Source: Actinomycetota bacterium (GTDB taxonomy: Bacteria > Actinomycetota > Geothermincolia > Fen-727 > Anoxymicrobiaceae). From it: DNA of 34,968 nt. Positions within the stretch are counted from its first letter, which is position 1; each line of letters opens with the position of its first letter. A program made the translations under genes and the position numbers. The notes below the pieces were generated by a model, which searched no databases, had not been told where the DNA came from, and saw only the letters and a list, made by a program, of their open reading frames with translations. The stretch is taken from positions 1-34,968 of the forward strand of contig JAHIMR010000054.1 in assembly GCA_018896525.1 (NCBI GenBank), given 5' to 3'. Shown piece after piece: positions 1-32,712 of this stretch.

Positions 1-134
1 CGGGACGGTCCGAAGTCACGCCTGTGGAGATTCGGGTGACCTGACTGAGCGATTGGTCGGGGTGACCGGGTCGTTGAAGCAGGAAAAGTTCCCTTCTTCA
101 AAGTAGGGAAGCCCCTTCCGTAAGGGAGGGGTAG

Positions 135-356
135 TTCACGCATTCCTGGAAGTCATACACGTCGAAAGAAGTAAACAAAATCCTCGGCCGCAATGGTCAG
201 TTCTGGCAAAGGGAATACTACGACCACTTGATACGTAACGAGGAAGAGTACTTCGCTTGTATCGAATACACTTTGAACAATCCGGTCAGTGCGGGTCTTT
301 GTGTTACCTGGGAAGAGTGGCCCTGGGTCGGTATTGGCAACCTTGAGATCAGGTAA
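135..356 (+). mobile_element. IS200/IS605-family (RAYT-like) Y1 tyrosine transposase, C-terminal fragment. It is 5'-truncated or frameshifted and probably non-functional.
   Basis: The frame-0 translation 135..356 reads ...SWKSYTSKEVNKILGRNGQFWQREYYDHLIRNEEEYFACIEYTLNNPV...*. This resembles the conserved C-terminal WQRxYYDHxIR(D/N)E....I..Y...NP block of TnpA(IS200)/RAYT proteins. An in-frame stop lies at 132, and the upstream sequence reads in a different frame. The HuH motif is not recoverable in one frame. A REP-like repeat lies immediately downstream at 366-380. Confidence 0.5.
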
Positions 357-365
357 CAGACGGTA

Positions 366-380
366 GGATGCCGGCGCTAC
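366..380. repeat. Partial REP-like element, a half copy: GGATGCCGGCGCTAC.
   Basis: It matches the 3' half of the dispersed consensus ...GCCGGCAAGATGCCGGCGCTAC. It lies 10 bp after the stop of the transposase fragment. Confidence 0.5.
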
Positions 381-491
381 GGTGTTCAGGTTTCATAGTA
401 ATAACGGGGGTTGCGGGAGGGAAGTCGTTGATTTCCGTAGAAGTGAAGGATATCCGATAGTCGTTGTGTTGCAGGATGAAAAGGAACTCAC

Positions 492-752
492 ATGGGCTTG
501 CTGGCATGGATCGTGCTCGGTGGTGTCGCGGGGTGGCTCGCCAGCCTGGTCGTAGGGGTCGGTGCCAGGATGGGCTGCCTGTTGAACATAGTCGCGGGAG
601 TGGTCGGCGCGGTCATCGGAGGGGTGATGTTCAACGCGCTTGGCTCCCGGGGGATCACCGGCTTCACCTGGTGGAGCCTCTTTGTGGCGTTCGTCGGAGC
701 GGTGATCCTGCTTGCTCTCCTCAGGCTGGTAGCGTTAATAATGAAAGATTAG
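492..752 (+). CDS. GlsB/YeaQ/YmgE-family small membrane protein (transglycosylase-associated protein family)
   Basis: The product is 86 aa, MGLLAWIVLGGVAGWLASLVVG...NIVAGVVGAVIGGVMFNALG..., with two or three TM helices. It matches the typical GlsB/YmgE pattern (Pfam Transgly_assoc, from memory). The start is an ATG at 492. An AAGGAA RBS lies upstream. Confidence 0.75.
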   Translation: MGLLAWIVLGGVAGWLASLVVGVGARMGCLLNIVAGVVGAVIGGVMFNALGSRGITGFTWWSLFVAFVGAVILLALLRLVALIMKD

Positions 753-811
753 GCCTCTCCGTTCTTGAGTGTGGCCTTCAATCCTCATCTCCGGGCTCTA
801 GCCCACATCCG

Positions 812-1024
812 GGGAACGGTTGCCGGCAAGATGCCGGCGCTACAGGGAACGAGGGATGCCGGCAAGATGCCGGCGCTACAGGGAACGAGGGATGCCGGCA
901 AGATGCCGGCGCTACAGGGAACGAGGGATGCCGGCAAGGTGCCGGCGCTACAGGGAACGAGGGATGCCGGCAAGGTGCCGGCGCTACAGGGAACGGGGGA
1001 AGCCGGCAAGGTGCCGGCGCTACA
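812..1024. repeat. Tandem array of 6 REP-like units with 36-bp period. The unit is GGGAACGAGGGATGCCGGCAAGATGCCGGCGCTACA.
   Basis: Six head-to-tail copies are visible directly. The first is 33 bp and the others are 36 bp. Each unit contains the hairpin GCCGGCA-AGA-TGCCGGC. On the bottom strand each unit starts with GTAGCGCCGGC, the GTAG hallmark of REP elements. No unique spacers are present, so this is not a CRISPR array. The array lies 8 bp from the stop codon of the convergent subtilase gene. Confidence 0.85.
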
Positions 1025-1032
1025 AGAAGGGG

Positions 1033-4000
1033 TCAGTCGCTGTACCCCCCTATGGTATCGGTCCCCGCTCCCCGCTCGTTCCAGTACATGGCCCTCTCCA
1101 CCATTATCTTGCTTCCAGCGGTCTTGGAGGTGACCAGAACCGCGGCCCTTCCCTGTATCCCGGCGTCGGCCATGAAGTACGTCTTGCGGGAGTTGCTCCC
1201 CACCGTATCGGTGAAGGTTGCGTTCCCCGTCCCGTCGGGGGTGAGGTAGGAGATCTCTACCGTGACGTCTGTCGCGTTGGGGTTGGCTACCAGGGTGTAG
1301 GTCTCCCTGCCGTTTGAGGTCTCACCGTCAGGGAGGTAGAAGGTGGTGTGGGGGGCGGATAACCCGATAGAGTCGTGGCACGCCTCTCCGGTTCCGTTGT
1401 CCCAGTACATGGCCCTCTCGGCGATGATGGGCTGGGAGCCGTGGACCTGGGTGGAGAAGTCGCTTGCGGGGAGCACGTCGTTCACCCTTATGGTCTTCCT
1501 CGAGTTGGCAGGCATGGTGAACGGTGCCTGGGGCACCGCTCCTGATGATGTCATGTAGGTGACGGTGACGTCGGTGTCGGTGTCGTTGGGGTTCTGCACC
1601 AGCACGTAGGTGGTGAACCCCCAGTCGGTGGTGCCCTCGGCCAGGTAGTAGTTCTCCGCCGGGGAGGTGGTCCCGATGGAGTCATGTCCCTCCCGCTTGT
1701 TGTTCCGGTACATGGCCCTCTCCGGGATTACCGGGATGTCGGCCACCACCTTGAGGGATGCGTCGGCCTCCCCTATGTCGTTCGCCATGCTGTAGGTCTT
1801 GCGGGACTGTGCCGGTATCTTCTTCTCGAACGTCACCGGGTCCGCATCCTTCATCATGTAGGTGACCTGGGCGGTTGCCTCGGTGTTGTTGGGGTTCTGT
1901 ATGAGGAGCCAGCACTCGAACCCCCAGGCGGAGGAGCCCTCGGGTAGGTACCATGTGGTGGCGGGGGATGTCACCCCCACCGAGCAGTGTCCGTCGGGGG
2001 AGGGGGCACCGGATCCGGTCCAGGTCATGGTGCGGTCCACCGCTATTGATTTGCCCTCTTTGCACTCCACGTGAGCGGAGAAGTCCTTGTCTCCCAGGAT
2101 GCCTCTCGGGTTTACCGTGGCCTGGCTCATTGCGGGGAGGTCTATGTCCCCACCGGGCATAGCGCCCGCGTCTGTCATGTAGGTGACGGTGGCGCTTACC
2201 GCCTCGTTGTTGGGGTTCTGAATCGTCACGTAGGTGGAGAACCCCCAGTCGGTGGAGCCCTCGGCCAGGTACCAGATGGGGGTTGTTGCCTCGCTGACCG
2301 TAAAGGCGCCGGCCAGTTCCCTGCTCTTGCCGTCGGTGTTCTCCACCTTGACCGCGTACGTGCCCGCCGCAGCCCCGTTGAGGTCGAAGGAGCAGGTTAT
2401 CTTCTTGCTTGATGCCACGTTCACGCCGGTTGCGTTTATGGTGCCTGCTCCCGTCTCCCCTGAGCCGGAGGGGCCGGCGAGTTGAACGGTCGCCCCGTTC
2501 CGGAAGCCGGTGCCAGCGAGGTTGGTGATGGAGACCGTTCCATCGTTAGTCGCGCCAGGGGGGATAATGCCAGTGACCGTGGGTGCGGGGTAGTCCACGG
2601 TAAACTCAACCCCGTTGCTGGTGCCGTTCGATGTGGTGACTCTTACCGGACCGTCAGTCGTGCCGGCGGGCACAGTACAAATCACCTCGGTATCCGACCA
2701 CGACTCGTAGGCGGTCACGGCCGTACCGTTGAACGTCACCTGCGACGTCCCCTTGGAAAACCCGAAGTCCGACCCCGAGATCGTCACCTGGGCACCCGGT
2801 TGGGCTATGCATGGTGCTACCTGGTCAATATGCGGAGTTGAGGAAATATCGCTCAACGCACGGCAGGCATCCACCCTGCCGTGCCCGAAGTAATCATCCC
2901 GCCCCGGGTCCCCCAGGTCCTCCGCGTTGTCCTCGATTACCTGCTCCACCTGCGAAGCGGTAAGCGATGGGTCGAAAGAAAAGATAAGGGCCGCGGTCCC
3001 GGCAACCATCGGTGTCGCGGCGGATGTGCCGGAGCCGTAACCGTAACCCCCGGACTTGGTAGTGGAGTACACGTACCACCCCGGGGCGGTGACATCGACG
3101 CTCGCGTTATGGTTGGAGAACGAGGCCTTCTCGTCCAGGTTGTTGGTGGCACCCGCGCCTATGACATTCTCGCAGTTTGCGGGATAGTACGTTGTTTCGT
3201 CCCCGTCGTTTCCAGCCGCCGCGACCAGCACCACGCCCTGCCCGTGAGCGTAGTCTATCGCGTCCTGCTCCGTGCTCGACTCGAACGGGCTGCCCAGGCT
3301 CATGCTTATAACCCTCGCCCCGTTGTCGGCGGCGTAGTATATCGCCTCGATGATCTCGTCGGTTGCCAGAACCCCGCTGGGCACGCCGCTACCGTCCAGC
3401 ACCTTCAACGGCATTATCCTCGCGCCCGGGGAGACGCCGGCGATACCCTGGCTGTCGCTCTCGGCGCCGGCTATCCCGCTTACGTACGTCCCGTGGCCGT
3501 TATCGTCCCTGGGATTCGAGTTGGGGTTGGTCTTGAAGTAATAATCGTCGGAGCCGCTGCCGTTCCACGTCCCACCGTCCCAGTGATGCTGCTGGCCCTC
3601 GTCGTAAACGTCACCGTTCTCAGCTCCCCGGTTCTCGTAGAGCATGTAATGGTTCGCCGGGTCCTGGTTGTCAGTTTCAATCACCAGGTAGTAGTTCGTC
3701 CCCGACCCCAGCGGTACCGGAGAGGACAGCGGTTCGTAGACTACGTACATGAACGAACCTAACTCAGCCGGGCTGACGGTGTACGAGGATATGTCCGCCC
3801 CGTAGAGGTCATCCCTTACCGAGATCTTGATCTCCCCCGCCGGATCGCCTACCTTGTCCAGGAGGATCCCTACGTGGGTAAGCTCGCAGCCGGCCCCGGT
3901 TATCGACTGGGCAACCGTCCGGGTTGCGGCGCTATCGCCGAAGGGGCGCGACATGAACACCGGCATCCCGCCCGAAAGGTAGTAGAAGACCTTCTGCGAA

Positions 4001-4665
4001 ATGCCGACGAAATTGTATCCACCTACATCGTCCACGTATCCGTTGATATCATCGTCAATGCCGTTGCCGGGAATCTCCCCCGGGTTCACCCATGTCTTCG
4101 ATTCCAGGTCCGGGTGGTCGAAGTCTATCCCGGAGTCCAGCACCGCCACCGTTATCTCGTTGGTCTGCCCGTCCTCGATATCCCAGGCGCTCACCGCGTG
4201 GATGTCCGCCCCCGGGGTTCCATCGACACCTCCGATGTTCTGGCCGGTGTTGTGAAGGCCCCACTGGTTGGGGAAGCCGGGGTCTGGTGGGGTGTACATG
4301 GCCCGCCTGAGAAAGTTAGGCTCGGCGCTGATAACCGCGTCGCTCGCCTCAAGCAAACGGACGGCCTCATCGATTTCCACGCCCGTCCGGAGATTGATAA
4401 GCCGGGTGTGCCTGTTCCCGGCAGGACCTATCTCCTTTAGCGTCGCCCTCGCGCCCGCCTCCCTCGTGATGCGACCTCTTTCGGTCGCGCTGATGCCGTC
4501 TCTGAACCGCACCAGCACCTCCCCCTGCCTGCGTGAGACGGAGATGCTACGCTCGCATGCCGTCCCTGCGCTCACCACGGCCGGGGCCGCCGCCGATAAC
4601 GCCGCCGCCGCAACCATTGCCGCAACGGTTATCAGGGCCGCGACAGTTGCTCTTAAACGCGACAT
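1033..4665 (-). CDS. Secreted multidomain subtilisin-like serine peptidase (S8 family) with an N-terminal I9-like propeptide, a large insertion between the catalytic Asp and His, IPT/TIG-like Ig domains, and a C-terminal module of 4-5 tandem ~110-aa repeats of unknown family
   Basis: The signal peptide is MSRLRATVAALITVAAMVAAAALSAAAPAVVSA. The catalytic triad motifs are VAVLDSGID (Asp), DDNGHGTYVSG (His) and GTSAATPMVAG (Ser). An IPT-like domain reads VTISGSDFG...VTFNGTAVTAYESWSDTEVICTVP. The C-terminal repeats read WYLAEGSTDWGFSTYVTIQNPN...VTYMT...DFSAHVE...IAVDRTMTW, and the last one ends ...ERAMYWNERGAGTDTIGGYSD. The long ORF 1033..4716 starts at TTG. The first ATG, at 4665, gives a standard signal peptide. 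Confidence 0.85.
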   Translation of the reverse strand: MSRLRATVAALITVAAMVAAAALSAAAPAVVSAGTACERSISVSRRQGEVLVRFRDGISATERGRITREAGARATLKEIGPAGNRHTRLINLRTGVEIDEAVRLLEASDAVISAEPNFLRRAMYTPPDPGFPNQWGLHNTGQNIGGVDGTPGADIHAVSAWDIEDGQTNEITVAVLDSGIDFDHPDLESKTWVNPGEIPGNGIDDDINGYVDDVGGYNFVGISQKVFYYLSGGMPVFMSRPFGDSAATRTVAQSITGAGCELTHVGILLDKVGDPAGEIKISVRDDLYGADISSYTVSPAELGSFMYVVYEPLSSPVPLGSGTNYYLVIETDNQDPANHYMLYENRGAENGDVYDEGQQHHWDGGTWNGSGSDDYYFKTNPNSNPRDDNGHGTYVSGIAGAESDSQGIAGVSPGARIMPLKVLDGSGVPSGVLATDEIIEAIYYAADNGARVISMSLGSPFESSTEQDAIDYAHGQGVVLVAAAGNDGDETTYYPANCENVIGAGATNNLDEKASFSNHNASVDVTAPGWYVYSTTKSGGYGYGSGTSAATPMVAGTAALIFSFDPSLTASQVEQVIEDNAEDLGDPGRDDYFGHGRVDACRALSDISSTPHIDQVAPCIAQPGAQVTISGSDFGFSKGTSQVTFNGTAVTAYESWSDTEVICTVPAGTTDGPVRVTTSNGTSNGVEFTVDYPAPTVTGIIPPGATNDGTVSITNLAGTGFRNGATVQLAGPSGSGETGAGTINATGVNVASSKKITCSFDLNGAAAGTYAVKVENTDGKSRELAGAFTVSEATTPIWYLAEGSTDWGFSTYVTIQNPNNEAVSATVTYMTDAGAMPGGDIDLPAMSQATVNPRGILGDKDFSAHVECKEGKSIAVDRTMTWTGSGAPSPDGHCSVGVTSPATTWYLPEGSSAWGFECWLLIQNPNNTEATAQVTYMMKDADPVTFEKKIPAQSRKTYSMANDIGEADASLKVVADIPVIPERAMYRNNKREGHDSIGTTSPAENYYLAEGTTDWGFTTYVLVQNPNDTDTDVTVTYMTSSGAVPQAPFTMPANSRKTIRVNDVLPASDFSTQVHGSQPIIAERAMYWDNGTGEACHDSIGLSAPHTTFYLPDGETSNGRETYTLVANPNATDVTVEISYLTPDGTGNATFTDTVGSNSRKTYFMADAGIQGRAAVLVTSKTAGSKIMVERAMYWNERGAGTDTIGGYSD

Positions 4666-4886
4666 CCTTATACTAACCTGATCCTTCGCTTGTCCATCCG
4701 CCACCAGGGCTTTCAACCCACTTCAACTCGTATAACGTATAACGCAACAAGAACCTTACAAGATACCTGGATAATCACCGGATAAGCGGGCGCCGGTTAT
4801 AATAGTCACGTCCGGTTACGTTCCTTGCACGGCAGGTTGACCGGCCCGGTGGTCAACCCCGTGCCCGCGACAAGGAGGCTTTCAAG

Positions 4887-6498: not shown

Positions 6499-6523
6499 GA
6501 AGCCGGCAAGATGCCGGCGCTAC
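6499..6523. repeat. REP-like element, single copy (GAAGCCGGCAAGATGCCGGCGCTAC)
   Basis: It matches the dispersed consensus exactly. It lies in the 54-bp spacer between the acyl-CoA synthetase and gamma-CA-like genes. Confidence 0.7.
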
Positions 6524-7143: not shown

Positions 7144-10100
7144 TTAGAAGCCGATTACGTCGTGGCCACCGGTCCAGGCGCCTTGGTAGTTGAAGTACAT
7201 GGGGCGCTCCACCACTATCTTGATTCCGTTGGTTGACTCCACCTTCGCCGAGAAGTCATGAGCGGCGTCGTCACCCACACCCAGCGTATCCTTAACGGCA
7301 ACCGTCGAGCGGGAATGCGCCCCGACCGTCACATCCTGTTCCCGTGTAGTTCCATCGCCCTTCATGTAGGTTATCTTCACCTCGGCAACGGCAAGCTCCG
7401 GGTTCTCGATACAGATGTAGGAATCGAAGCCGGGGCGGCAGGTGCCCTCGGCGAAGTAAAAGGCCGTCTTCGGCGCGAGCGCGCCCACCACGTCCGAACC
7501 CCCCGTCCAGCCGGCGGCACCGTAGGAGAAGTACATGGGCCGCTCGGCTATGATCTCCTGCAGGTTGGTTGACTCCACCTGGCAGGAGAAGTCGTGAGCG
7601 GCGTCGTCACCTTCCCCAAGGACGTCTTTTACCCTCACGGTTGAGCGTGTCCGTGCTCCCACAACCAGTGACTGCTCGACACTGTTTCCGTCACCCTTCA
7701 AGTAGGTGATATCGACATAGGAATCGTTGGCCTGCGGGTTCTGGATACAGATGTAAGGGTCAAAGCCGGGGCGGCAGGTGCCCTCGGCGAAGTAGAAACA
7801 GTTACGTGGCGCGAGCGCGCCCACCACGTCGTGCCCGCCCGTAATTACACCGTGATAGTTGAAGTACATCGGCCTTTCGGCAACTATCTTTACATCGCTG
7901 GTTGACTCAACCTTCGCCGAGAAGTCATGGGCGGGATCGTCCCCCACGCCAAGGGCATCGTTCACCGTAACGGTTGAGCGGGAGTGCGCGGCAACAACGA
8001 GATCCTGCTCCTGGGTCATGCCGTCGCCCTTCATGTAGGTGATCTTCACCTGCGCCTCAGTATCATCCGGGTTCTGTATGCAGAAATAAGGTTCGAATCC
8101 GGGGCGGCAGGTGCCCTCGGCGAAGTAGAACGTGGAGGCCGGCGCCAGCGCCCCCACAACGTCCGAACCGCCAGTCCAGGCGCCACCGTAGTTGAAGTAC
8201 ATCGGCCTCTCGGCGATGATCTCTTCCCCGTTGGTGCACTCCACCTTGGCCGAGAAATCGTGCGCGGGGTCGTCCCCCTCCCCCAGGGTATCCTTCACCA
8301 CGACGGTTGAGCGGGAGTGCGCGGGAACGTCGAGCACCTGTTCTTGTGTGGTTCCGTCGCCCTTCATGTAGGTAATCTTCACATCAGCATCGTTGTCACA
8401 AGGATCCTGGATGCAGATATAGGGGTCGAAGCCGGGGCGGCAGGTGCCTTCCGCGAAGTAAAACATGAAGTCGGTTACCGTGAATCTCTCGCCCTCCGAT
8501 GTGCCCCAGGGGCATCTCACTTCTACGGCACCGGTGAAGCTTCCAAACGGAACAGAGCACAGTATCTCGGAATCAGACCAGGAAATATACTCTGTGACCG
8601 GTATGCCGTTGAAGGTGACATCCGAAGAACCCCTGGTGTTTCCGAAGTTCCCCCCACTTATGGTCACCTGCGTTCCCACCGTACCGGAGATTGGCGTAAT
8701 GCTGTGTACGAAGGGAGGATGAGCCGGCGCTTCGTAGATCGTCAGGCCTCCCGCCAGGGGATGAGGGACCTCCGCCCCAGTGATGACGTTTACGTCCCGT
8801 TCGCCGGGGGTCGCCGCAACGCCCACTTTTATCTTCGCGGTGGCGTGAGCGGAGTCGGTTACCGTGGTTGATTCAACGGCAACGCCTTCCCCCGAGATGT
8901 CCGCTTTACTCACGCCATCCTCGAAGTGGGTGTTGTTTCCCAGTACGTGAAGATCAACCTCGTGGCCCTGGACTACCTCGGTGGGAGAACAGGCCTTGAT
9001 GGCCGGCGCTTCGGTAAAGACGGTGAAAGCGCGTTTGAGGGGGTAAGGCTCCCTGGTTCCGGTGATAACGTTGACGTCCCGGGCGCCCGCGGGCGCGTCC
9101 TGGGCAATCGTTATGTTAGCGGTAGCGTGGTTGAGATCCTGTACGGTGGTGGAGTTCACGGTGATGCCATCGCCGGAGAAAGTGGCTACGCTGACCCCGG
9201 GGGTGAAGCTCTCGCCGTCACCCAGGATCTTGACGTCCACCGTTTCTCCGGGTTTGCCCGACCCGGGATGCACCGAGGCGATAAAGAGGGCCTGGACCTG
9301 TGTGTTGACGGTACCGCCGGGCGGAATCTCATCCATCTTGACGCGCAACGTCATATAGCTCGTCCTGGGACGCCAGTACTCCAGGAGGGTTCCGTTGGAT
9401 ATGCGGTAGCGGCCGACATCGCCTATATCGTCCATGGGGAAATCGACTACCGTACTGTCAAGGTTCACCGGAGGGTCACCCTCCGTGAAGTAGTTGGTGC
9501 ACCTGAAACTCTTGTTGACGCTATCGGAATCCGTTGAGTCAAAGCCCGCGTCCACCGCCGGTGTATCGAGGTCCGCCAGCGCCAGATACGCCTCCGCGAA
9601 GTTCGAGTGCTTCTTTATCTGGGTGTCCTTGTAGGTGGGCAGGGAGTAGCAGTCACCCTTGTAGTTGTACCTGCCAACCGCTCCATCTTCAATGAATACC
9701 TGGCGCATTCCCGGGTACTCGATTGTCCCGAAGCTGGTGGTAGTGGTGTTGAGGTGTGTCACCTTCTTGGGATGGGACGTGTCGATGAAAACATCGTCCC
9801 TGTGGACATGCCCGCTTATCGCCAGGCCGACACCGTAGTCATGAGTGTACTTCATGAGGTCGTCCATCTGGGCCTGGCTCGCCCAGGTGTCCCCGCTTGA
9901 TTTTCCGTAGAACGGATGGTGGACCGCCATCATCAACAACTCATACTTGCCCTTGACCTTGGCGAGGTCGCCTAACATCCACCCCCACTGGTTTTCCCTC
10001 ATCGCCCCGTTCGCATCAACCGGGCACAAGTAGGGCCATATATCCATGCTGGAGCGCTGGCCCTTCCCCAGTAACGCCCAGGGGTCCCTCTGCGGTTTGT

Positions 10101-11187
10101 CGTACCCATTCATGCCGGTGATGTGGAGCTTGTCGCCGTAATCCCACCCGCCGAACCGGGGGCCTATCATGGTGTGCCAGATGTGCGCTCCGTCCTGATG
10201 ATGCTTGTGTGTGTGGGGTTGGTTTCCCCCATTCTGCTTCTGGAGGTTGTAGCAGTCGTGGTTGCCCGGTATGCAAAAGACCGGAACCTCGAGCCGCAGT
10301 AGCTGTTCGTAGGCCTGACTGTATTCTCCGTCCCAGTCGGGCGCCTCTCCGGCGAAGTCGGTCCTCTTGTCCGCCGGCCAGTATAGAGGACAAAGGTCAG
10401 CGGCAAACTCGGGAACCCCGAAGGGCAGGTCGCCGGTCATGATCACAAAGTCGGGGTTCAACCTGTTCACGTTGTCCAGCGCCTTCAGGTTGTAGAGGTA
10501 GTTCTTGAACTGGCTGGGATCCGGGTACGGCCCCGGCACGAAGGCGATGCCGGGCCCCCGCGGGTCATTGACGTGAAAGTCGGTGATCTGTATGAAGTTG
10601 TAGTCGTCCTTGTACTCGTCTATCACCTGTACCGCGTGGGGTTGGGAATCGGTTATGGTGGTTGCCCCATCCGCGGTCACCTGCAGGTCATAGAGATCCG
10701 AGCGTGCACTCGAGGGCACCTTCACTGTAACGTGCCATACCTCCTTGCCGGCCCACGGCCCCGACCACTCTCCCTTGGCCGGCGATTCCGGCGAAGCGCC
10801 TTTCGCCCACGCCAACGACTCAGCCCTGACCGCGTTCTGGACCGGCAGGTCCGCAACGGTCGGCCACTGGTCATTGGATGAAAGGAGCCTGACGTCCCAG
10901 TCGGAGACATCGGGCTGCGATCCGCCCGCGCCCTTGCCAACATAGTCGAACTCCAGGGTAAACGTCTCTCCCTTCTTTCGGATCACCGGGCAGCCGATTG
11001 TGGGATAGTCAAGGTGGGTTATCTTCCAGGGCCAGCCGTCGGGTATGTTGACCTCGGTCGGCACGGGTGCGGCCTCCGCCTGCCCGGCCGGCAGCATGGC
11101 GATAGACATACCCATAGCCAGCAGTAACACCAGCGCTGCACAAACGACCCTGGACAAAACGACCGGCTTCCTGATTCTCTCTACCAT
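7144..11187 (-). CDS. Secreted giant surface protein: calcineurin-like metallophosphoesterase head, Ig-like/IPT domains, and five C-terminal ~115-aa repeats of the shared module
   Basis: The signal peptide is MVERIRKPVVLSRVVCAALVLLLAMGMSIAMLPAGQAEAAP. The metallophosphatase motifs are ITDFHVND, IMTGDLPFG, CIPGNHDCYN, MAVHHPFYG and ISGHVHRDD. An IPT-like domain reads VTISGGNFG...VTFNGIPVTEYISWSDSEILCSVP. The five C-terminal repeats read YFAEGTCRPGF[DE]PYICIQ[ND]P...VKITYMKGDG..EQ...V.AHSRSTV.V.D.LG.GDD.AHDFSAKVE....I.AERPMYFNY. The start is taken as the ATG at 11187, which precedes the signal peptide. The ORF also extends upstream to 11268. Confidence 0.85.
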   Translation of the reverse strand: MVERIRKPVVLSRVVCAALVLLLAMGMSIAMLPAGQAEAAPVPTEVNIPDGWPWKITHLDYPTIGCPVIRKKGETFTLEFDYVGKGAGGSQPDVSDWDVRLLSSNDQWPTVADLPVQNAVRAESLAWAKGASPESPAKGEWSGPWAGKEVWHVTVKVPSSARSDLYDLQVTADGATTITDSQPHAVQVIDEYKDDYNFIQITDFHVNDPRGPGIAFVPGPYPDPSQFKNYLYNLKALDNVNRLNPDFVIMTGDLPFGVPEFAADLCPLYWPADKRTDFAGEAPDWDGEYSQAYEQLLRLEVPVFCIPGNHDCYNLQKQNGGNQPHTHKHHQDGAHIWHTMIGPRFGGWDYGDKLHITGMNGYDKPQRDPWALLGKGQRSSMDIWPYLCPVDANGAMRENQWGWMLGDLAKVKGKYELLMMAVHHPFYGKSSGDTWASQAQMDDLMKYTHDYGVGLAISGHVHRDDVFIDTSHPKKVTHLNTTTTSFGTIEYPGMRQVFIEDGAVGRYNYKGDCYSLPTYKDTQIKKHSNFAEAYLALADLDTPAVDAGFDSTDSDSVNKSFRCTNYFTEGDPPVNLDSTVVDFPMDDIGDVGRYRISNGTLLEYWRPRTSYMTLRVKMDEIPPGGTVNTQVQALFIASVHPGSGKPGETVDVKILGDGESFTPGVSVATFSGDGITVNSTTVQDLNHATANITIAQDAPAGARDVNVITGTREPYPLKRAFTVFTEAPAIKACSPTEVVQGHEVDLHVLGNNTHFEDGVSKADISGEGVAVESTTVTDSAHATAKIKVGVAATPGERDVNVITGAEVPHPLAGGLTIYEAPAHPPFVHSITPISGTVGTQVTISGGNFGNTRGSSDVTFNGIPVTEYISWSDSEILCSVPFGSFTGAVEVRCPWGTSEGERFTVTDFMFYFAEGTCRPGFDPYICIQDPCDNDADVKITYMKGDGTTQEQVLDVPAHSRSTVVVKDTLGEGDDPAHDFSAKVECTNGEEIIAERPMYFNYGGAWTGGSDVVGALAPASTFYFAEGTCRPGFEPYFCIQNPDDTEAQVKITYMKGDGMTQEQDLVVAAHSRSTVTVNDALGVGDDPAHDFSAKVESTSDVKIVAERPMYFNYHGVITGGHDVVGALAPRNCFYFAEGTCRPGFDPYICIQNPQANDSYVDITYLKGDGNSVEQSLVVGARTRSTVRVKDVLGEGDDAAHDFSCQVESTNLQEIIAERPMYFSYGAAGWTGGSDVVGALAPKTAFYFAEGTCRPGFDSYICIENPELAVAEVKITYMKGDGTTREQDVTVGAHSRSTVAVKDTLGVGDDAAHDFSAKVESTNGIKIVVERPMYFNYQGAWTGGHDVIGF

Positions 11188-11428
11188 TTCAGCAACACCT
11201 TTCCCTCGAGGCTGCCCGGTGTCCCGTCTCATAAATACAATGGCATTCGAACGCCGCTGCATCCACACCGGCCGCGTTCCGCTCCCTCGAAGTACTCCAA
11301 GAGTACGACTTCAGTCGCGCGCCTTGCCGGAGCGGCGCTTCGACGCTCTCGGTGCGTCACCGTACTTATGAGAAGGGACACTGCTTTCACCGCCGTAGCA
11401 CCTGCCGCGAATCCGCCGCGGCGGTTTT

Positions 11429-13801
11429 CTAGTTCACGTCGAACCCCACGGAGCCGGTGGCGCACTGCCTTTCGTTGTAGTACAGTGCCCTTTCCACCAC
11501 CACCGGTCTATCCGATGTAACCCGCGTGGAAACGTTATATGTCTCGACTGTGTCAGCTATATTGACGCTTACCCTGCACCCGGGCGCCACGTCTATACCT
11601 GGTCCCTCCTTCTCGCCCTCACCGGTCATGTAGGTTACTGTCACGTGAGCGGTCTCCGCCCCCGGGTTCTGCACCAGTATCCAGGTCTCGAAGCCACCGT
11701 AGGTACTGCCTTCGGCCACATACCAGGCCACGCCCGTGTTCGTAGAGCCTACCGAGCCGGTGGCGCACTGCCTGTCGTTGTAGTAGAGCGCCCTCTCCAC
11801 CACCACCGGGTTGTCGGAGGCCACCCGTGTTGACACCGTGTATGTCTCCACCGTGTCGGCCACGTTCACGCTCTGCCTGCATCCCGCACCCACGGTGAGC
11901 GTGGGGCCCGCAACCTCCTCCCATTCGGTCTGGTACGTAAGTTCAACCTTGGCTGGCTCGCTCCCCGGGTTCTGCACCAGTATCCAGGTCTCGAAGCCGC
12001 CGCAAGTGCTCCCCTCGGCCACGTACCAGTTAGTGTCCGTGTCGGTGGCCCCTACCGAGCCGGTGGCACACTGCCTTTCGTTGTAGTAAAGCGCCCTCTC
12101 CACCACTACCGGGTTGTCCGACGTCACCCCGGTTGATACCTCGATCGTCTCAACGGTATCCGCCACGTTCACGCTCCGCCTTGTCCCCGGCTGTACCGTT
12201 ATGGTGGGGCCGAACGCCATCCCCTTGTCGGTGTAATATTTCAGGTTCACCTCCGCCGGTTCGCTCCCCGGGTTCTGCACCAGTATCCATGTCTCGAAGC
12301 CGCCGGAGGTGCTGCCTTCCGCCACGTACCAGTTGGTATCGGCGCTGGTGGCACCCAGCGAGCCGGTGGCGCACTGCCTTTGGTTGTAGTAGAGCGCCCT
12401 CTCCACCACCACCGGCCTATCGGAGTTGACCTCGGTGGAGACATCAAAGCTCTCCACGGTATCCGCCACGTTCACGCTCACCCTGCTACCGGGTGGCACG
12501 TCGGTTGCGGGACCCTCCTTCTCGCCCTCGCCGGTCATGTAGGTCAGTGTCACGTGAGCGGTCTCGGCCCCCGGGTTCTGCACCAGTATCCATGTCTCGA
12601 AGCCGCCGTAGGTACTGCCTTCGGCCACGTACCACGTCGCCCCGGCGAAGCCGTTGAACGAGGCCTGGGTCCAGTCGGTGTACGGCGGACCACCGGCGAC
12701 CGCCGTCCTCCACACCTCGCATCCCCTCTCGAGGTCCGTGGCCCCCACGAAGAGGTTCGAGCCGTATGCGGCCATTGAAGAAGCGTCCAGGTTGTTGGTG
12801 TCCCCGAAGCCGCCGGTATTGACCTGCTCGAAGCTGTTTCCGTCGGCGGAGCGCCAGACCCCGCAGCCGTAATCATGGTTGTAGCTCCCCACGTACAGGC
12901 AGGAGTCATAGACGCTCATGCTTGACGCGTCAACGTTGTGCTTGCTCCCGAAGCCGTCGCCGCCCAGTTGCGTCCAGTCGGCCGGGGTCGGCCCGTCGCG
13001 GCGCCATATCTCGCAGCCGGTCCCGTCGTTCCAGGTACCCGCGTACATCTTCCCGTCAAACGATTGGAGGGAAGAGACGGTGCCGTTGTGCCCGTCGGAG
13101 AAGCCGTCGTCATTCACCTGGTTGTAGTTGACGCCGTCAGCGGAGCGCCAGACCTCGCACCCGGTGACCGTGTTGTGGGTCCCGACGTACAGTTCAGACC
13201 CGTTCACCGCCATAGAAGAGGCGTCCAGGTTGTTCGTGTCCCCGAAGCCGCCGGTGCCGACCCGGTTCCAGGTACCGCCGTCCGCCGAGCGCCAGACCTC
13301 GCAGCCGGACTGGTGGTTCTCGAGACCTGCGTACAGCGCTCCATCATAGACGGCCATCGACGAGACACTGTGGTTGTGGCCGCTCCCGAACCCCCCGGTT
13401 TGGACCCGTGTCCAGTCTGTCCCGTCGTATCGCCAGACCTCGCAGCCGCTGACCCAGTTCATTGTCCCGGCGTACAACTCGGAGTTGAACACCGCCATCG
13501 AGGCGACCCCGTCGTTGTTGGCGTTCCCGAACCCGCGGGTGGCGACCCTGGTCCAGTCGCTTCCGTCGTAGCGCCAGACCTCGCAGCCGCTGAGCCAGTG
13601 GAGCGTCCCCGTGTACAGATCCGTCCCGTACGAGGCCATCGCATTGATGGCACACTGCTGCCCGTTGCCACCGGCGAACCAGGGCACCGGGTCGCCCGCC
13701 GCACCGGTTTCCATTCCGCCCGCCAGTGAAAACGACCCCAGGAGCAGGCCAGCCGTCATTATGAGAACCGACAGCCAGACCATAATTCTCATTCGTCTCA
13801 T
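11429..13801 (-). CDS. Secreted surface protein: beta-propeller of ~8 blades (47-aa repeats ...GFG..NN..ASSMAV....LY.GT.N...GCEVWR.DG..W..V) plus four C-terminal repeats of the shared module
   Basis: The signal peptide is MRRMRIMVWLSVLIMTAGLLLGSFSLAGG. The GCEVWR[YS].DG repeats are visible by eye and number seven to eight. The C-terminal repeats read WYVAEGST.GGFETWILVQNPG.E.A.V.L.Y.T......GP...V..G.R.SVNVADTVE...VST.V.SD.PVVVERALYYN. An AGGGGG RBS lies 6 nt upstream of the ATG at 13801. Confidence 0.8.
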   Translation of the reverse strand: MRRMRIMVWLSVLIMTAGLLLGSFSLAGGMETGAAGDPVPWFAGGNGQQCAINAMASYGTDLYTGTLHWLSGCEVWRYDGSDWTRVATRGFGNANNDGVASMAVFNSELYAGTMNWVSGCEVWRYDGTDWTRVQTGGFGSGHNHSVSSMAVYDGALYAGLENHQSGCEVWRSADGGTWNRVGTGGFGDTNNLDASSMAVNGSELYVGTHNTVTGCEVWRSADGVNYNQVNDDGFSDGHNGTVSSLQSFDGKMYAGTWNDGTGCEIWRRDGPTPADWTQLGGDGFGSKHNVDASSMSVYDSCLYVGSYNHDYGCGVWRSADGNSFEQVNTGGFGDTNNLDASSMAAYGSNLFVGATDLERGCEVWRTAVAGGPPYTDWTQASFNGFAGATWYVAEGSTYGGFETWILVQNPGAETAHVTLTYMTGEGEKEGPATDVPPGSRVSVNVADTVESFDVSTEVNSDRPVVVERALYYNQRQCATGSLGATSADTNWYVAEGSTSGGFETWILVQNPGSEPAEVNLKYYTDKGMAFGPTITVQPGTRRSVNVADTVETIEVSTGVTSDNPVVVERALYYNERQCATGSVGATDTDTNWYVAEGSTCGGFETWILVQNPGSEPAKVELTYQTEWEEVAGPTLTVGAGCRQSVNVADTVETYTVSTRVASDNPVVVERALYYNDRQCATGSVGSTNTGVAWYVAEGSTYGGFETWILVQNPGAETAHVTVTYMTGEGEKEGPGIDVAPGCRVSVNIADTVETYNVSTRVTSDRPVVVERALYYNERQCATGSVGFDVN

Positions 13802-19355: not shown

Positions 19356-19432
19356 ATATAGGCTCAAACCCGCATCCGGGACCGCGCTGTTCCCCGTAGC
19401 GCGGGCATCCTGCCGGCATTCGTGGCCGTGAC

Positions 19433-19660
19433 ATGCCGCCTGGAAGGCGGCTACCCCCACCTCAATCCTCCCCCGGGAACCCCCCCCCCATCCTAACCTT
19501 CCCCCAACCCCTAAGACCCCCCATCCCGGCCTTCCCCCCAGTGGGGGGAAGGAGCGGAGGGGGAAGGAAGGGTCAGGGGGGAAGGAGCGGAGGGAAAGGG
19601 AATGCCGGCAAGGTGCCGGCGCTACGGGGTGGGGGAGGGGGGTAAGACCTCATCACTCGG
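19433..19660. repeat. Low-complexity tract: ~95 bp poly-pyrimidine (C-rich) followed by ~110 bp poly-purine (G-rich), centred on the perfect palindrome CCTTCCCCCC-AGT-GGGGGGAAGG. It contains two direct copies of GGGGGGAAGGAGCGGAGGG and an embedded REP-like unit.
   Basis: Seen directly in the sequence. The C-runs give i-motif potential and the G-runs give G-quadruplex potential on the same strand. A 10-bp perfect hairpin core has imperfect extended complementarity. The tract lies 80 bp downstream of the flotillin stop. Confidence 0.6.
19600..19625. repeat. REP-like element (GAATGCCGGCAAGGTGCCGGCGCTAC)
   Basis: It matches the dispersed consensus and is embedded in the G-rich tract. Confidence 0.7.
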
Positions 19661-20998: not shown

Positions 20999-21015
20999 TG
21001 TTTTCCCATAATAGT

Positions 21016-21046
21016 AGAAATCAAGAGGAGTTGCCTCTTGATTTCT
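21016..21046. promoter_or_regulatory. Perfect 13-bp inverted repeat AGAAATCAAGAGG-AGTTG-CCTCTTGATTTCT. It lies 18 bp upstream of the paralog-C start codon, between paralogs B and C.
   Basis: Seen directly in the sequence. No U-tract follows on the coding strand. It could be an operator or an RNA stem-loop (processing or attenuation). Confidence 0.4.
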
Positions 21047-25520: not shown

Positions 25521-25588
25521 GGGAACGGTTGCCGGCGGGATGCCGGCGCTACGGAAAACGGGGAATGCCGGCAAGGTGCCGGCGCTAC
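25521..25588. repeat. Two tandem REP-like units, 8 bp from the stop of the 1643-aa gene
   Basis: The units are GGGAACGGTTGCCGGCGGGATGCCGGCGCTAC and GGAAAACGGGGAATGCCGGCAAGGTGCCGGCGCTAC. They sit in the same position relative to the gene 3' end as the 6-unit array at 812-1024. Confidence 0.8.
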
Positions 25589-30459: not shown

Positions 30460-30639
30460 GCCAACTCTCCCTGCCCCCGGCATGGGGGCTTGCCTCCCTG
30501 CCCCGTTCAAAGGCGCCACCCAGACCATTCGTTGCTTCTATTATAGACTATATCGGTTGCTTCCGCTGTTATCTGTAACCTATAACGGCCGTGGGCCCTT
30601 TGCGGATACCCCCCGGCGAGTCTCCCACCCCATAGCACC

Positions 30640-30790: not shown

Positions 30791-30983
30791 ATTGGCAAGG
30801 TCCTGGCGAGGGAGGGCGCCCAGTCCGTCTCCGTTTGGAAACGTGCCTCGCCAAACACGCCGTCGGCGTTGTATCCTATGGATGCGAGATGAAGTTGCTC
30901 CCGTGGGATTGTCGTGGGAACTGGAGGTGCCTGTGGCTGATTCACCAGGTAGTACGATAACCGCCCAGGAGAAGATAGAAGAG

Positions 30984-31277
30984 ATGGTGCGTCGTATCGT
31001 CGGTCAGTTCGACCCGGAGAGTATCATCCTCTTCGGCTCTCATGCCCGGGGGACCGCTGGGCCTGACAGCGACGCGGATTTGCTGGTCGTAATGAACGTC
31101 AAGGGCTCCCGCAGGGAGAAAGCCACCGAGATCGATGTTGCGCTGGTGGGAGTAGGCCTTCCCAAAGACCTTATCGTTGTTACGCCAGACGATGTTGAGA
31201 GGAGCCAGGACCGGGTAGGGACTATCATACACGCGGCTCTGCAGGAGGGAACGGTGCTCTATGAGCGGAGAGCCTGA
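30984..31277 (+). CDS. Minimal nucleotidyltransferase (MNT), the antitoxin of a HEPN/MNT module
   Basis: It contains ESIILFGSHARGTAGPDSDADLLVV, the GS...D.D motif of the Pol-beta NTase fold. It overlaps the downstream HEPN gene by 17 nt. The start is the ATG at 30984, with an AGGAG RBS upstream. The ORF extends to 30792. Confidence 0.8.
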   Translation: MVRRIVGQFDPESIILFGSHARGTAGPDSDADLLVVMNVKGSRREKATEIDVALVGVGLPKDLIVVTPDDVERSQDRVGTIIHAALQEGTVLYERRA

Positions 31278-31677
31278 GAGCACCCATACTGTTGTGCAAT
31301 GGATCGAGAAAGCGGAAAATGACCTCAGAAACGCTGAGTATACACTCACGCTCCAGGACAACTGCCCGTTCGACACGATCTGCTTTCACGCGCAGCAATG
31401 CGCCGAGAAGTATCTGAAAGGGCTTCTCTTCTTTCTTTCAATTTCTTTCCCAAAAACACATGACCTCGAAGCGTTGACAAGCCTGGTGCCAGACGATATC
31501 TCACTTGGGTTGGACATGGGCGCCGTCTTGTCTTTGAACCGCTATACGATCGAGGCGCGCTACCCGGGTGACTGGGAGCCAATTGCGAGAACTGAAGCCG
31601 AGAATGCCGTCGACGTCGCCCGGAGGGTCCGTGAGGCGGTCAGGAACAACCTCCCGGATGAGATAACAGGCCGGTAG
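31261..31677 (+). CDS. HEPN-domain protein, the toxin partner of the MNT
   Basis: It is 138 aa. It has a HEPN-like helical bundle with the ...IEARYPGDW... motif region. Its N-terminus is WIEKAENDLRNAEYTL. It is coupled translationally to the MNT gene. Confidence 0.8.
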   Translation: MSGEPESTHTVVQWIEKAENDLRNAEYTLTLQDNCPFDTICFHAQQCAEKYLKGLLFFLSISFPKTHDLEALTSLVPDDISLGLDMGAVLSLNRYTIEARYPGDWEPIARTEAENAVDVARRVREAVRNNLPDEITGR

Positions 31678-31875: not shown

Positions 31876-31898
31876 GTAGCGCCGGCAACTTGCCGGCA
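31876..31898. repeat. REP-like element in inverted orientation (GTAGCGCCGGCAACTTGCCGGCA)
   Basis: It is the reverse complement of the consensus TGCCGGCAAGTTGCCGGCGCTAC. It lies about 60 bp upstream of the Flp pilin gene. Confidence 0.7.
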
Positions 31899-31955
31899 AT
31901 CAACGTGGCCGACAAGCCGCCCGGAAGGCGGCGCGAAGAGAAAGGAGACCGGCAG

Positions 31956-32132: not shown

Positions 32133-32140
32133 GAGATGCC

Positions 32141-32668: not shown

Positions 32669-32712
32669 GGGTGTTCGGTTTGAAGACGAAGCGGCGTCGG
32701 CACAGTAGGCGC

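What the first reader, a model, noticed from the sequence alone, without database searches (positions are those of the whole stretch)
135..1024. REP-like palindromic repeat family with the 5' GTAG signature, a 6-unit tandem array and an adjacent RAYT/IS200-like transposase fragment
The consensus GTAGCGCCGGCAYCTTGCCGGCWTC contains the hairpin GCCGGCA-AGA-TGCCGGC. It occurs at 366-380, 812-1024 (6 units), 6499-6523, 19600-19625, 25521-25588 (2 units) and 31876-31898 (inverted orientation). All copies are intergenic, often between convergent genes or directly after stop codons.

At the left edge lies a truncated Y1 transposase fragment with the RAYT-like WQREYYDHLIRNEEEY block, and a half REP lies immediately 3' of it. 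Together these fit a REP/RAYT system. The array has a regular 36-bp period. When read through, it creates an in-frame 12-aa repeat (MPARCRRYRERG), which explains the spurious ORFs there.
Basis: partly seen in the sequence, partly recalled or inferred. Interest (0 to 1): 0.6.

Follow-up and report, generated by a model that had tools for sequence, protein, structure and literature searches.

The report
REP hairpin repeats with broken RAYT transposase
This is an ordinary family of small GTAG-tagged hairpin repeats (REPs) scattered between the genes of an uncultured actinobacterium, lying next to the remnant of the tyrosine transposase (RAYT) that normally spreads them, a gene that here has been cut in two by another mobile element.

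Summary
The motif GTAGCGCCGGCAYCTTGCCGGC occurs 13 times in 35 kb, against 0 expected. Six copies form a 36-bp head-to-tail array at 822-1023. All copies are intergenic.

The REP/RAYT interpretation holds. The 73-aa fragment at 135-356 matches the C-terminal half of NCBIfam 'REP-associated tyrosine transposase' (E=1e-15). Of 61 testable metagenomic relatives, 51 have a GTAG-tagged hairpin next to the gene and 17 have one on both sides in inverted orientation. Nearly all are GTAGCGCCGGC-type, and two loci carry the exact window 22-mer. An intact relative's only solved-structure match is E. coli TnpA_REP.

New points:
- The RAYT is not simply truncated. Window 1-139 is the right end of a TnpB-encoding IS200/IS605-family element inserted into it. 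IS-free alleles exist in related strains.
- The two tandem arrays lie 8-9 nt after the stop codons of paralogous genes and share both flanks, so they are copies by descent. Unit number varies (6, 3 and 2), as in a VNTR.
- The same 22-mer occurs in at least 120 stretches of other genomes, mostly Acidobacteriota, although this MAG is Actinomycetota.

Verdict: a new member of a known kind, of modest interest.

The parts
2..106 (+). 3' end of a tnpB gene (RNA-guided endonuclease of an IS200/IS605-family element). The stop codon TAG is at 104-106. This is not part of the REP system; it is the element that interrupts the RAYT gene.
   Evidence: Contig L005 from the same organism extends 229 bp further left. 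Its ORF 3-335 hits PF07282 Cas12f1-like_TNB (E=1.3e-18) and NF040570 guided_TnpB, positions 319-385 of 389 (E=9e-16).
108..139 (+). Right end of the IS: the hairpin CCCCTTCC-GTAA-GGGAGGGG (112-131) plus the tail TAGTTCAC. The junction with RAYT sequence lies at about 135-139.
   Evidence: The hairpin folds at -18.2 kcal/mol, z = -3.4. Homology to the IS-free alleles L127 and L207 starts at GCATTCCTGG, window 140.
135..356 (+). C-terminal half (73 aa plus stop) of a RAYT (REP-associated tyrosine transposase). It keeps the WQREYYDH block and the catalytic-Tyr motif (IEYTLNNP). The HUH motif is missing.
   Evidence: NF047646 E=1e-15, model positions 77-145 of 146. In the alignment of a relative to 4ER8, Tyr115 falls on the Y of the Y..NP motif (Y115, H59 and H61 from PMC3479197). 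The HUH motif PNHMHVV is present upstream in the IS-free allele L207.
359..380 (-). 3'-flanking REP of the RAYT gene, GTAG on the minus strand. It is degenerate (GTAGCGCCGGCATCCTACCGTC) and the hairpin is lost.
   Evidence: Three mismatches to the consensus. No stable fold. It occupies the same position, 2-50 nt after the stop codon, as the ...GCCGGCGCTAC REP of intact relatives.
822..1023 (-). Head-to-tail array of six 36-bp units. Each unit is a 22-nt REP (GTAGCGCCGGCAYCTTGCCGGC) plus a 14-nt linker (ATCCCTCGTTCCCT). Three units have loop TCT and three have CCT. The array begins 9 nt after the stop codon of the S8 peptidase gene (1033-4716, minus strand).
   Evidence: Six units are present in six contigs of the same organism (L001-L006). 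Three units are present in strain L208.
801..821 (-). Conserved terminal flank of the array (AACCGTTCCCCGGATGTGGGC on the minus strand). It is shared with the second array.
   Evidence: Alignment of the two array loci.
6502..6523 (-). Single REP between the acyl-CoA ligase stop codon (6479) and the hexapeptide-protein start codon (6534).
   Evidence: An orthologous REP is present in the relative L210 (GTAG at 4437, minus strand, loop variant ATCCT).
19396..19454 (+). Two-hairpin doublet GTAG...CTAC (head-head, REPIN-like): GTAGCGCGGGCATCCTGCCGGC, a 15-nt spacer, then GCCGCCTGGAAGGCGGCTAC.
19604..19625 (-). Single REP in the 689-bp spacer between convergent genes.
25531..25588 (-). Two-unit head-to-tail array with 36-bp spacing. 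It begins 8 nt after the stop codon of the BNR/DUF5719 gene (25597-30528, minus strand), a paralogue of the S8 peptidase's C-terminal region.
   Evidence: Flanks homologous to those of array 1 on both sides.
31876..31936 (+). Second doublet: GTAGCGCCGGCAACTTGCCGGC, a spacer, then GCCGCCCGGAAGGCGGC. The outer CTAC has decayed to GCGAAG. It lies upstream of the Flp pilin gene.

Best explanation
The repeats are a REP family (repetitive extragenic palindromes). Each is a 22-nt unit with the tetranucleotide GTAG followed by a perfect 7-bp G+C-rich stem and a 3-nt loop. They belong to a REP/RAYT system (a 'REPtron'), whose RAYT gene lies at the left edge of the window.

By analogy with characterised systems, the HUH/Y1 enzyme binds the folded single-stranded REP together with its 5' GTAG. 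It cleaves nearby and performs strand transfer, and this spreads REPs or REP doublets into intergenic DNA.

In this strain the RAYT copy is dead. The right end of a TnpB-encoding IS200/IS605-family element replaces everything upstream of residue ~77, including the HUH motif. In a 99%-identical strain without the IS, the same gene carries a stop codon inside a REP that had inserted into the coding region. The REPs seen here are therefore probably relics that are no longer mobilised from this locus.

The 36-bp head-to-tail arrays are a secondary, local phenomenon. A REP plus its 14-nt linker downstream of an ancestral gene was amplified in tandem, most likely by replication slippage or unequal recombination. 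Copy number varies: 6, 3 and 2 units at orthologous or paralogous sites.

Shown here: the sequence anatomy, the RAYT homology, the REP-RAYT-REP arrangement in relatives, the IS junction, and the paralogy and copy-number variation of the arrays.

Inferred: the enzymatic mobilisation, the slippage mechanism, and any effect of the hairpins on the 3' ends of mRNAs.
For: Motif statistics and anatomy:
- 13 matches against 0 expected.
- 15 GTAG-hairpins against 2.1 in shuffles.
- Six regular hairpins in the array, z = -6.

RAYT identity:
- NF047646 E=1e-15 for the fragment.
- Full-length relatives score 71.5 and 80.9 bits against a cut-off of 80.
- PF01797 Y1_Tnp E=1.3e-7 for one of two relatives tested.
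- The only PDB hit is 4ER8 TnpA_REP, with the HUH and Tyr115 regions aligned.

Canonical arrangement in relatives:
- 375 tblastn-confirmed relatives in metagenomes, of which 80 were fetched.
- Of 61 testable loci, 51 have a GTAG-hairpin within 200 nt and 17 have one on both sides in inverted orientation. The 5' REP usually sits 57-71 nt from the conserved R..LPHW motif.
- L157 and L199 carry the exact window 22-mer on both sides.
- The loop-proximal stem pair changes in a compensatory way between loci (A-T, G-C, T-A, C-G), and the left and right copies within a locus usually match.

Orthologous IS-free alleles:
- L127 (85% identity) and L207 (99%) show tadC-like gene, then REPs, RAYT, degenerate REP and the same 86-aa gene.

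IS insertion:
- TnpB C-terminus, right-end hairpin and breakpoint.

Recent inactivation:
- dN/dS is about 0.19 for the fragment between the window and L127, similar to the neighbouring gene at 0.30. Counts are small.

Arrays:
- Homologous flanks on both sides.
- Three units in L208 against six here.

Literature:
- Head-tail dimers and tandemly reiterated REP clusters are described (PMC3733652; PMC3116915).
Against: - No intact RAYT is present in the window, and the rest of the MAG could not be searched. A functional REP/RAYT pair in this genome is therefore not demonstrated.
- The 3' REP next to the RAYT has lost its hairpin.
- Most copies here are singletons or head-to-tail units rather than the inverted doublets (REPINs) regarded as the replicative unit. 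Only 2 of 7 sites are doublets.
- Among 125 copies of the same 22-mer in other genomes, only 1 has a head-to-tail neighbour. The arrays are thus atypical for the family.
- Pfam Y1_Tnp does not hit the fragment itself or L127's protein.
- No biochemical data exist for this RAYT clade.
Confidence: 0.85

Rival explanations
1. The hairpins are the ends, or miniature derivatives (PATE/MITE-like), of the IS200/IS605-family element whose tnpB gene lies at the contig edge. On this view the Y1 fragment is that element's own TnpA, not a RAYT.
For: A tnpB 3' end lies 30 bp upstream of the Y1 fragment. RAYTs and IS200 TnpAs are homologous, and both recognise subterminal hairpins preceded by a 4-nt guide (PMC3479197).
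Against: - The IS right-end hairpin (CCCCTTCC-GTAA-GGGAGGGG) is unrelated to the REP.
- In strains and relatives without the IS, the Y1 gene continues upstream at the same chromosomal site and is bracketed by REPs (L207, L127).
- The best profile hit is REP_Tyr_transpos and the best structure hit is TnpA_REP.
- Homology breaks exactly at the IS end.
Confidence: 0.04
2. The hairpins are host regulatory elements, such as transcription terminators or mRNA 3'-end stabilisers. On this view they arose and are maintained for that function, and their association with the RAYT is incidental.
For: Several copies lie just after stop codons: 8-9 nt after two large genes and 22 nt after the acyl-CoA ligase. 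The stable G+C hairpin forms in RNA of either strand (-13.4 kcal/mol). Roles of this kind have been proposed for REPs (abstract of PMC3733652).
Against: - No T/U run follows the hairpin.
- Copies occur in both orientations relative to the adjacent transcription units.
- The conserved GTAG and near-identical sequence at unrelated sites indicate copying, not convergence.
- The same sequence brackets RAYT genes in many genomes.
- A secondary, exapted role is not excluded.
Confidence: 0.07
3. The 36-bp array is a CRISPR-like array or a protein-coding 12-residue repeat.
For: The array has a regular 36-bp period with a palindromic core. Four ORFs are open across it, one with the repeat MPARCRRYRERG.
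Against: - The 14-nt 'spacers' are identical between units, so there are no unique spacers.
- No cas genes were seen among the annotated genes.
- ORFs are open in several frames on both strands, as expected from a stop-free repeat.
- The array lies between two convergent stop codons.
- A database search with the repeat peptide found nothing at E<=0.001.
- Unit number differs between strains.
Confidence: 0.02

Closest known systems
REPtrons with short perfect-palindrome GTAG REPs (TnpA_REP 'group 3', e.g. Stenotrophomonas maltophilia and Marinomonas MWYL1; the GTAG-tagged REP superfamily of Di Nocera et al. 2013)
   Same: Both have a 5' GTAG followed by a short, perfect, G+C-rich stem-loop. Both are extragenic, multi-copy and flank a RAYT gene in inverted orientation. 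Both occur as singletons, head-head doublets, head-tail dimers and tandem clusters (PMC3733652; PMC8266576; this window).
   Different: This RAYT clade has a long N-terminal region (RSRGRLPHWE...YFVTFRL plus an insert of about 60 aa before the HUH motif). It was not assigned to any published RAYT group here. Head-to-tail 36-bp arrays dominate in this window. The host is an Actinomycetota MAG.
E. coli REP/BIME with TnpA_REP (RayT/YafM, PDB 4ER8; 'group 2')
   Same: The RAYT clade matches the same enzyme family and the catalytic residues align, with the HUH motif seen in intact relatives rather than in the window fragment. The GTAG guide tetranucleotide lies 5' of the hairpin. The RAYT gene is bracketed by inverted REPs.
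   Different: E. coli REPs are about 35 nt long, with imperfect palindromes and a bulge that is required for recognition. They form BIMEs of alternating orientation (PMC3479197; PMC8266576). Here the palindrome is perfect, the unit is 22 nt, and the arrays are direct repeats rather than alternating.
REPINs of Pseudomonas fluorescens SBW25 (Bertels and Rainey 2011)
   Same: Both have inverted REP doublets (two here, at 19396-19454 and 31876-31936). Both have tandemly repeated higher-order clusters that include flanking sequence, and REP clusters next to the RAYT gene (PMC3116915; the 77-bp triplication in L127 and L207).
   Different: In SBW25, 61% of REPs are in doublets and singlets are regarded as decayed remnants. 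Here, counting the 13 consensus-motif copies, 2 lie in doublets, 8 in head-to-tail arrays and 3 are singlets (one of them the degenerate REP 3' of the RAYT).
IS200/IS605-family insertion sequences (IS608, ISDra2) with TnpA and TnpB
   Same: These are the evolutionary source of RAYTs. They share single-strand hairpin recognition with a 4-nt guide. A real member of this family, of which only the tnpB 3' end and the right end are seen, is physically present at 1-139.
   Different: The REPs are not the ends of that IS. The Y1 fragment belongs to the chromosomal RAYT, not to the IS.

Membership tests
REP/RAYT system (REPtron) | [quoted passage not shown] | tested here: inconclusive
   The window holds only the C-terminal half. 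The Tyr motif is present and the HUH motif is absent. In IS-free alleles and relatives the full gene has HUH (PNH[VML]H) and Tyr. So the feature is met for the locus and lineage, but not for a functional gene in this window.
REP/RAYT system (REPtron) | The RAYT gene is flanked by its cognate REPs in inverted orientation. | tested here: met
   In the window the 3' REP is present but degenerate, at 359-380. The 5' REPs are seen in the orthologous alleles L127 and L207. Of 61 relatives, 17 have both flanks and 51 have at least one.
REP/RAYT system (REPtron) | REP anatomy: a conserved GTAG tetranucleotide immediately 5' of a palindromic stem-loop. | tested here: met
   GTAG-C-GCCGGCA-YCT-TGCCGGC. 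Eleven perfect copies were found, and they fold as predicted.
REP/RAYT system (REPtron) | The REPs are dispersed, multi-copy and extragenic across the genome. | tested here: inconclusive
   Met within the contig: 7 intergenic sites in 35 kb.
REP/RAYT system (REPtron) | The RAYT binds and cleaves its cognate single-stranded REP. | not testable with these tools
   This needs biochemistry. It is known only for the E. coli, S. maltophilia and Marinomonas enzymes (PMC3479197, PMC8266576).
REPIN (inverted REP doublet as the replicative unit) | Most REPs are paired in inverted orientation at a fixed spacing and can form a long hairpin. | tested here: not met
   Only 2 of 7 sites are doublets, and their two arms have different stems (GCCGGC versus GCCGCC). 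In other genomes, 66 of 125 copies of the 22-mer are in GTAG...CTAC units.
BIME (E. coli type) | Regularly spaced REPs in alternating orientation. | tested here: not met
   All array units share the same orientation.
CRISPR array | Direct repeats separated by unique spacers, usually with cas genes nearby. | tested here: not met
   The 14-nt linkers are identical. No cas domains were seen in the ORFs scanned.
IS200/IS605-family element (the interrupting IS) | A tnpB gene followed by a right-end subterminal hairpin, inserted without target duplication. | tested here: inconclusive
   The TnpB C-terminus and a right-end hairpin are present. The left end, the tnpA gene and the target motif are beyond the contig end.

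The most novel reading that the evidence does not exclude
A RAYT clade and its cognate REP (GTAGCGCCGGC-N5-GCCGGC) may move between phyla as a unit while the REP stays almost invariant. The exact 22-mer of this Actinomycetota MAG recurs in at least 120 stretches of Acidobacteriota, Verrucomicrobiota, Hydrogenedentota and other MAGs. It also brackets RAYTs that are only 52-63% identical to the fragment here. That would run against the prevailing picture of REPIN-RAYT systems as vertically inherited, lineage-specific pairs. On this reading the window captures the end of such a system's life cycle: the RAYT was first invaded by its own REP, inside the coding sequence, and then destroyed by a TnpB element, while orphan REPs persist and expand only by tandem amplification.
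Probability: 0.3. Interest if true: 0.45.

Novelty: new member of a known kind. Interest (0 to 1): 0.3.

Why it matters
It adds a well-documented REP/RAYT system in an uncultured Actinomycetota lineage. The supporting alleles are an intact one, a nonsense one and an IS-disrupted one, all at the same locus.

It gives a natural series for studying how REP families outlive their transposase, and how REP tandem arrays change copy number.

The near-identity of the REP across phyla is a usable handle for testing horizontal transfer of REPtrons. It also suggests a candidate enzyme-substrate pair (for example the L157 or L199 RAYT with the 22-mer) for biochemistry on perfect-palindrome REPs.

For annotation, it explains four spurious ORFs across the array and several REP-derived peptides that appear in gene calls.

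Tried and rejected
- **Pfam on the 73-aa fragment.** No hit. NCBIfam was needed.
- **Rfam.** No family reached the gathering score on the whole window. The permissive search on L005 and L207 gave only chance-level hits, RAGATH-18 at E=0.09 and mir-31 at E=0.24.
- **Word-indexed protein search with the fragment.** Only two proteins were found. The metagenome locus search was far more productive.
- **Protein search with the array read-through peptide.** 2002 candidates, none at E<=0.001. There is no evidence for a coding repeat, and no way to count arrays by this route.
- **Genome-collection scan for the 22-mer.** Genome-wide copy number and orientation bias in this organism remain unmeasured.
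- **CRISPR, BIME and IS-end readings.** All were considered and rejected (see rival explanations and membership test).
- **Whether the IS targeted the internal REP of the RAYT gene.** The junction lies about 30 nt downstream of that REP's CTAC, so REP-targeting is not supported.
- **Assignment to the published RAYT groups 1-5.** Not attempted, because no reference sequences were available.
Full report
**1. Observation**

The sequence at 135-1024 is as described. Tandem Repeats Finder reports an array at 821-1024 with period 36, 5.7 copies, 98% matches and no indels. The motif GTAGCGCCGGCAYCTTGCCGGC, allowing up to 3 mismatches, occurs 13 times in the 34,968-bp window. None is expected in dinucleotide-preserving shuffles.

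The copies are:
- 359-380 (-), degenerate
- six array units between 822 and 1023 (-)
- 6502-6523 (-)
- 19396-19417 (+)
- 19604-19625 (-)
- 25531-25552 and 25567-25588 (-), 36 bp apart
- 31876-31897 (+)

A motif-independent scan for GTAG followed by a perfect hairpin of 6 bp or more gives 15 sites, against 2.1 in shuffles. As single-stranded DNA the array folds into six evenly spaced hairpins with 7-bp stems and 3-nt loops (z = -6.0).

All copies lie between ORFs supported by Pfam hits or by length. Four ORFs read through the array in different frames and on both strands, including the MPARCRRYRERG repeat. A search with the repeat peptide found no homologue, so these ORFs are artefacts of a stop-free repeat.

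**2. The transposase fragment**

The 73-aa reading frame at 135-356 matches NCBIfam NF047646 'REP-associated tyrosine transposase' at E=1e-15, over model positions 77-145 of 146. Pfam gave nothing for the fragment.

A metagenome scan found 375 relatives, of which 80 loci were fetched. Full-length relatives are about 190-250 aa. They share these motifs:
- RSRGRLPHWE...YFVTFRL
- W[CS]VMPNHVH (the HUH motif)
- SWKSY
- FWQREYYDHLIR
- Y..NP.KAGL

One relative (L157) hits Pfam Y1_Tnp. Its only match among solved structures is 4ER8, E. coli TnpA_REP. In that alignment H59/H61 and Tyr115, the residues named in PMC3479197, fall on PNHVH and on the Y of the Y..NP motif. The window fragment retains that tyrosine motif (IEYTLNNP) but has no HUH.

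**3. The link between enzyme and repeat**

In 61 relatives with enough flanking DNA, 51 have a GTAG-tagged hairpin within 200 nt, and 17 have one on both sides in inverted orientation. The 5' copy usually lies 57-71 nt from the conserved R..LPHW motif. Almost all are of the form GTAGCGCCGGC-N-loop-N-GCCGGC.

L157 and L199 carry the exact window 22-mer on both sides. The loop-proximal base pair varies between loci in a compensatory way (A-T, G-C, T-A, C-G), and the left and right copies within a locus usually agree.

**4. Why the gene is truncated**

The window is a whole contig (JAHIJY010000123.1 of GCA_018897975.1). A short contig from the same organism (L005) extends 229 bp further left. It shows that window 2-106 is the end of a tnpB gene, with PF07282 at E=1.3e-18 and NF040570 positions 319-385 of 389. 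After the tnpB stop codon comes the hairpin CCCCTTCC-GTAA-GGGAGGGG at 112-131.

Two IS-free alleles of the same chromosomal locus were recovered:
- **L127** is 85% identical at the protein level. It carries an upstream tadC-like gene and shares the downstream flank.
- **L207**, with L208 and L209, is 99% identical.

Homology to both begins at window 140 (GCATTCCTGG). The RAYT was therefore interrupted by the right end of a TnpB-encoding IS200/IS605-family element. The Y1 fragment is not that element's own TnpA.

In the L207 strain the RAYT is broken in a different way. A two-unit REP insertion lies inside the coding sequence, between the HUH strand and the SWKSY helix, and it carries a C-to-T change that creates a TAA stop codon. 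In L127 a single REP sits at the same place in frame (SRQGAGAT) and the ORF is intact.

The dN/dS ratio of the C-terminal fragment between the window and L127 is about 0.19, based on 10 synonymous and 9 non-synonymous differences. The neighbouring gene gives 0.30. The counts are small, but they suggest that inactivation is recent.

**5. Anatomy of the family in the window**

The minus-strand copies are singletons or head-to-tail units. The 14-nt linker (AT[CT]CC[CT]CGTT[CT][CT]C[CT]) is itself conserved between the two arrays.

The two plus-strand copies are the left arms of roughly 60-nt doublets. Their right arm is a second hairpin, GCCGCC-YGGAA-GGCGGC, ending in CTAC at 19454 and decayed at 31936. 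The 3' REP of the RAYT at 359-380 has two stem mismatches and does not fold.

**6. The arrays**

Both arrays start 8-9 nt after the stop codons of two paralogous large secreted-protein genes. These are the S8 peptidase at 1033-4716 and the BNR/DUF5719 protein at 25597-30528, which end in ...MYWNERGAGTDTIGGYSD and ...MYWNDRGAGTCTIGGYGE. Both arrays end with the same flank, AACCGTTCCCCGGAYGYGGGC. They are therefore related by descent (gene duplication or conversion), not by independent insertion.

Unit number differs:
- 6 in the window and in five other contigs of the same organism
- 3 at the orthologous site of strain L208
- 2 at the paralogous site

In L127 both the array and the peptidase gene are absent. 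Within the window array the units are ordered as three TCT-loop units followed by three CCT-loop units, which is consistent with stepwise local duplication.

Tandemly reiterated REPs and head-tail dimers are already described (PMC3733652; PMC3116915). Among 125 copies of the same 22-mer in other genomes, 66 lie in GTAG...CTAC doublets or composites (median 87 nt) and only 1 has a head-to-tail neighbour. The arrays are therefore a local peculiarity rather than a family trait.

I infer replication slippage or unequal recombination. RAYT-mediated strand transfer between adjacent units cannot be excluded.

**7. Distribution**

NCBI names the window's proteins as coming from an Actinomycetota MAG. 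Most are Acidobacteriota (Terriglobia). A few contigs are labelled Verrucomicrobia, Hydrogenedentota, Thermodesulfobacteriota or Saccharimonadales. Several assemblies contributed 2-3 stretches each.

From base frequencies alone I estimate that far fewer than one match to a 22-mer would be expected in about 600 Gb. This is my own estimate, not a tool result.

A related genome (L210, a 213-kb contig) keeps a REP at the site orthologous to 6502-6523.

**8. Mechanism and status**

The mechanism follows established work on E. coli, S. maltophilia and Marinomonas TnpA_REP (PMC3479197, PMC8266576). The HUH/Y1 enzyme binds the folded single-stranded REP with its GTAG, cleaves at a nearby dinucleotide and can transfer strands. 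The perfect short palindrome here resembles the 'group 3' type.

None of this activity is shown for the present clade. In this strain the adjacent RAYT is inactive, so the REPs are probably orphans unless a second RAYT exists elsewhere in the genome.

**9. Rivals**

The IS-end or PATE reading is contradicted by the IS-free alleles and by the unrelated IS hairpin. A purely regulatory origin does not fit the GTAG conservation, the mixed orientations or the missing U-tracts, although an exapted role at mRNA 3' ends remains possible. The CRISPR and coding-repeat readings fail on the identical linkers and on the multi-frame ORFs.

**10. Verdict**

This is a new member of the known GTAG-REP/RAYT kind. 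Three additions are worth recording:
- a TnpB IS disrupts the RAYT
- the arrays are paralogous and variable in copy number
- the REP is conserved across phyla

Interest is modest, at 0.3.

Noticed in passing
window 1-139 (extended by L005 1-368): The right end of a TnpB-encoding IS200/IS605-family element abuts the RAYT coding sequence. By the usual TnpB logic, the omega-RNA guide would be the adjacent RAYT sequence (GCATTCCTGGAAG...). One IS200-derived system has thus landed in, and would 'home' to, another. The contig ends inside the IS, which suggests that it is multi-copy.
   Followed up: partly
L127 1817-1841; L207 596-655; L133 (internal VAPASSRQ...SRQDAGAT): REPs are inserted inside RAYT coding sequences, in the same surface loop between the HUH strand and the SWKSY helix, in at least two separate lineages. 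The insertion is in frame in L127 and L133. In L207, L208 and L209 it carries a nonsense mutation.
   Followed up: partly
L127 1268-1450; L207 44-230: A 77-78-bp unit, made of the 5' REP plus the RAYT leader with its ribosome-binding site and ATG, is tandemly triplicated directly upstream of the RAYT gene. As a result the REP is read as the N-terminal peptide VAPASCRQS.
   Followed up: no
L007-L126 (e.g. L014, L022, L034, L071): In Acidobacteriota the same 22-mer is often the first arm of composite elements of about 90-100 nt. These have three or four different G+C hairpins, bounded by GTAGCGCC... and ...GGCGCTAC, with loops of the RTCTY/GGGAC type.
   Followed up: partly
L031, L075, L043/L083, L029: The exact 22-mer also occurs on contigs binned as Saccharimonadales (CPR), Verrucomicrobia, Hydrogenedentota and Thermodesulfobacteriota. 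This could reflect horizontal transfer or mis-binning of acidobacterial contigs.
   Followed up: no
window 19455-19600: A strongly strand-asymmetric tract: a C-rich run followed by a G-rich run. It contains an inverted repeat (ccttcccccc-agt-ggggggaagg) and a 15-bp tandem repeat GGGGGAAGGAGCGGA (19544-19594). It lies between the doublet and the single REP in a 689-bp spacer between convergent genes.
   Followed up: no
window 1033-4716, 7144-11268, 11429-13801, 25597-30528 (all minus strand): Four large secreted-type proteins share DUF5719-like C-terminal repeat modules. Two of them contain long internal DNA repeats (333-bp period at 7187-8465; 303-bp period at 11451-12634). Only the two whose 3' ends are about 80% identical carry REP arrays.
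   Followed up: partly
window 21014-21045: An unrelated GTAG-prefixed perfect 11-bp hairpin (AAATCAAGAGG-agttg-CCTCTTGATTT) lies just downstream of the stop codon of the gene at 21118-22383 (minus strand). It is probably a terminator-like hairpin, with the GTAG occurring by chance.
   Followed up: no
window 30792-31677 and 31957-33100: An overlapping pair of short ORFs that looks like a nucleotidyltransferase/HEPN pair (judged by eye only, no domain search was run) is followed by Flp pilin, prepilin peptidase and TadE-like genes. In L127 and L207 a tadC-like gene lies directly upstream of the RAYT.
   Followed up: no
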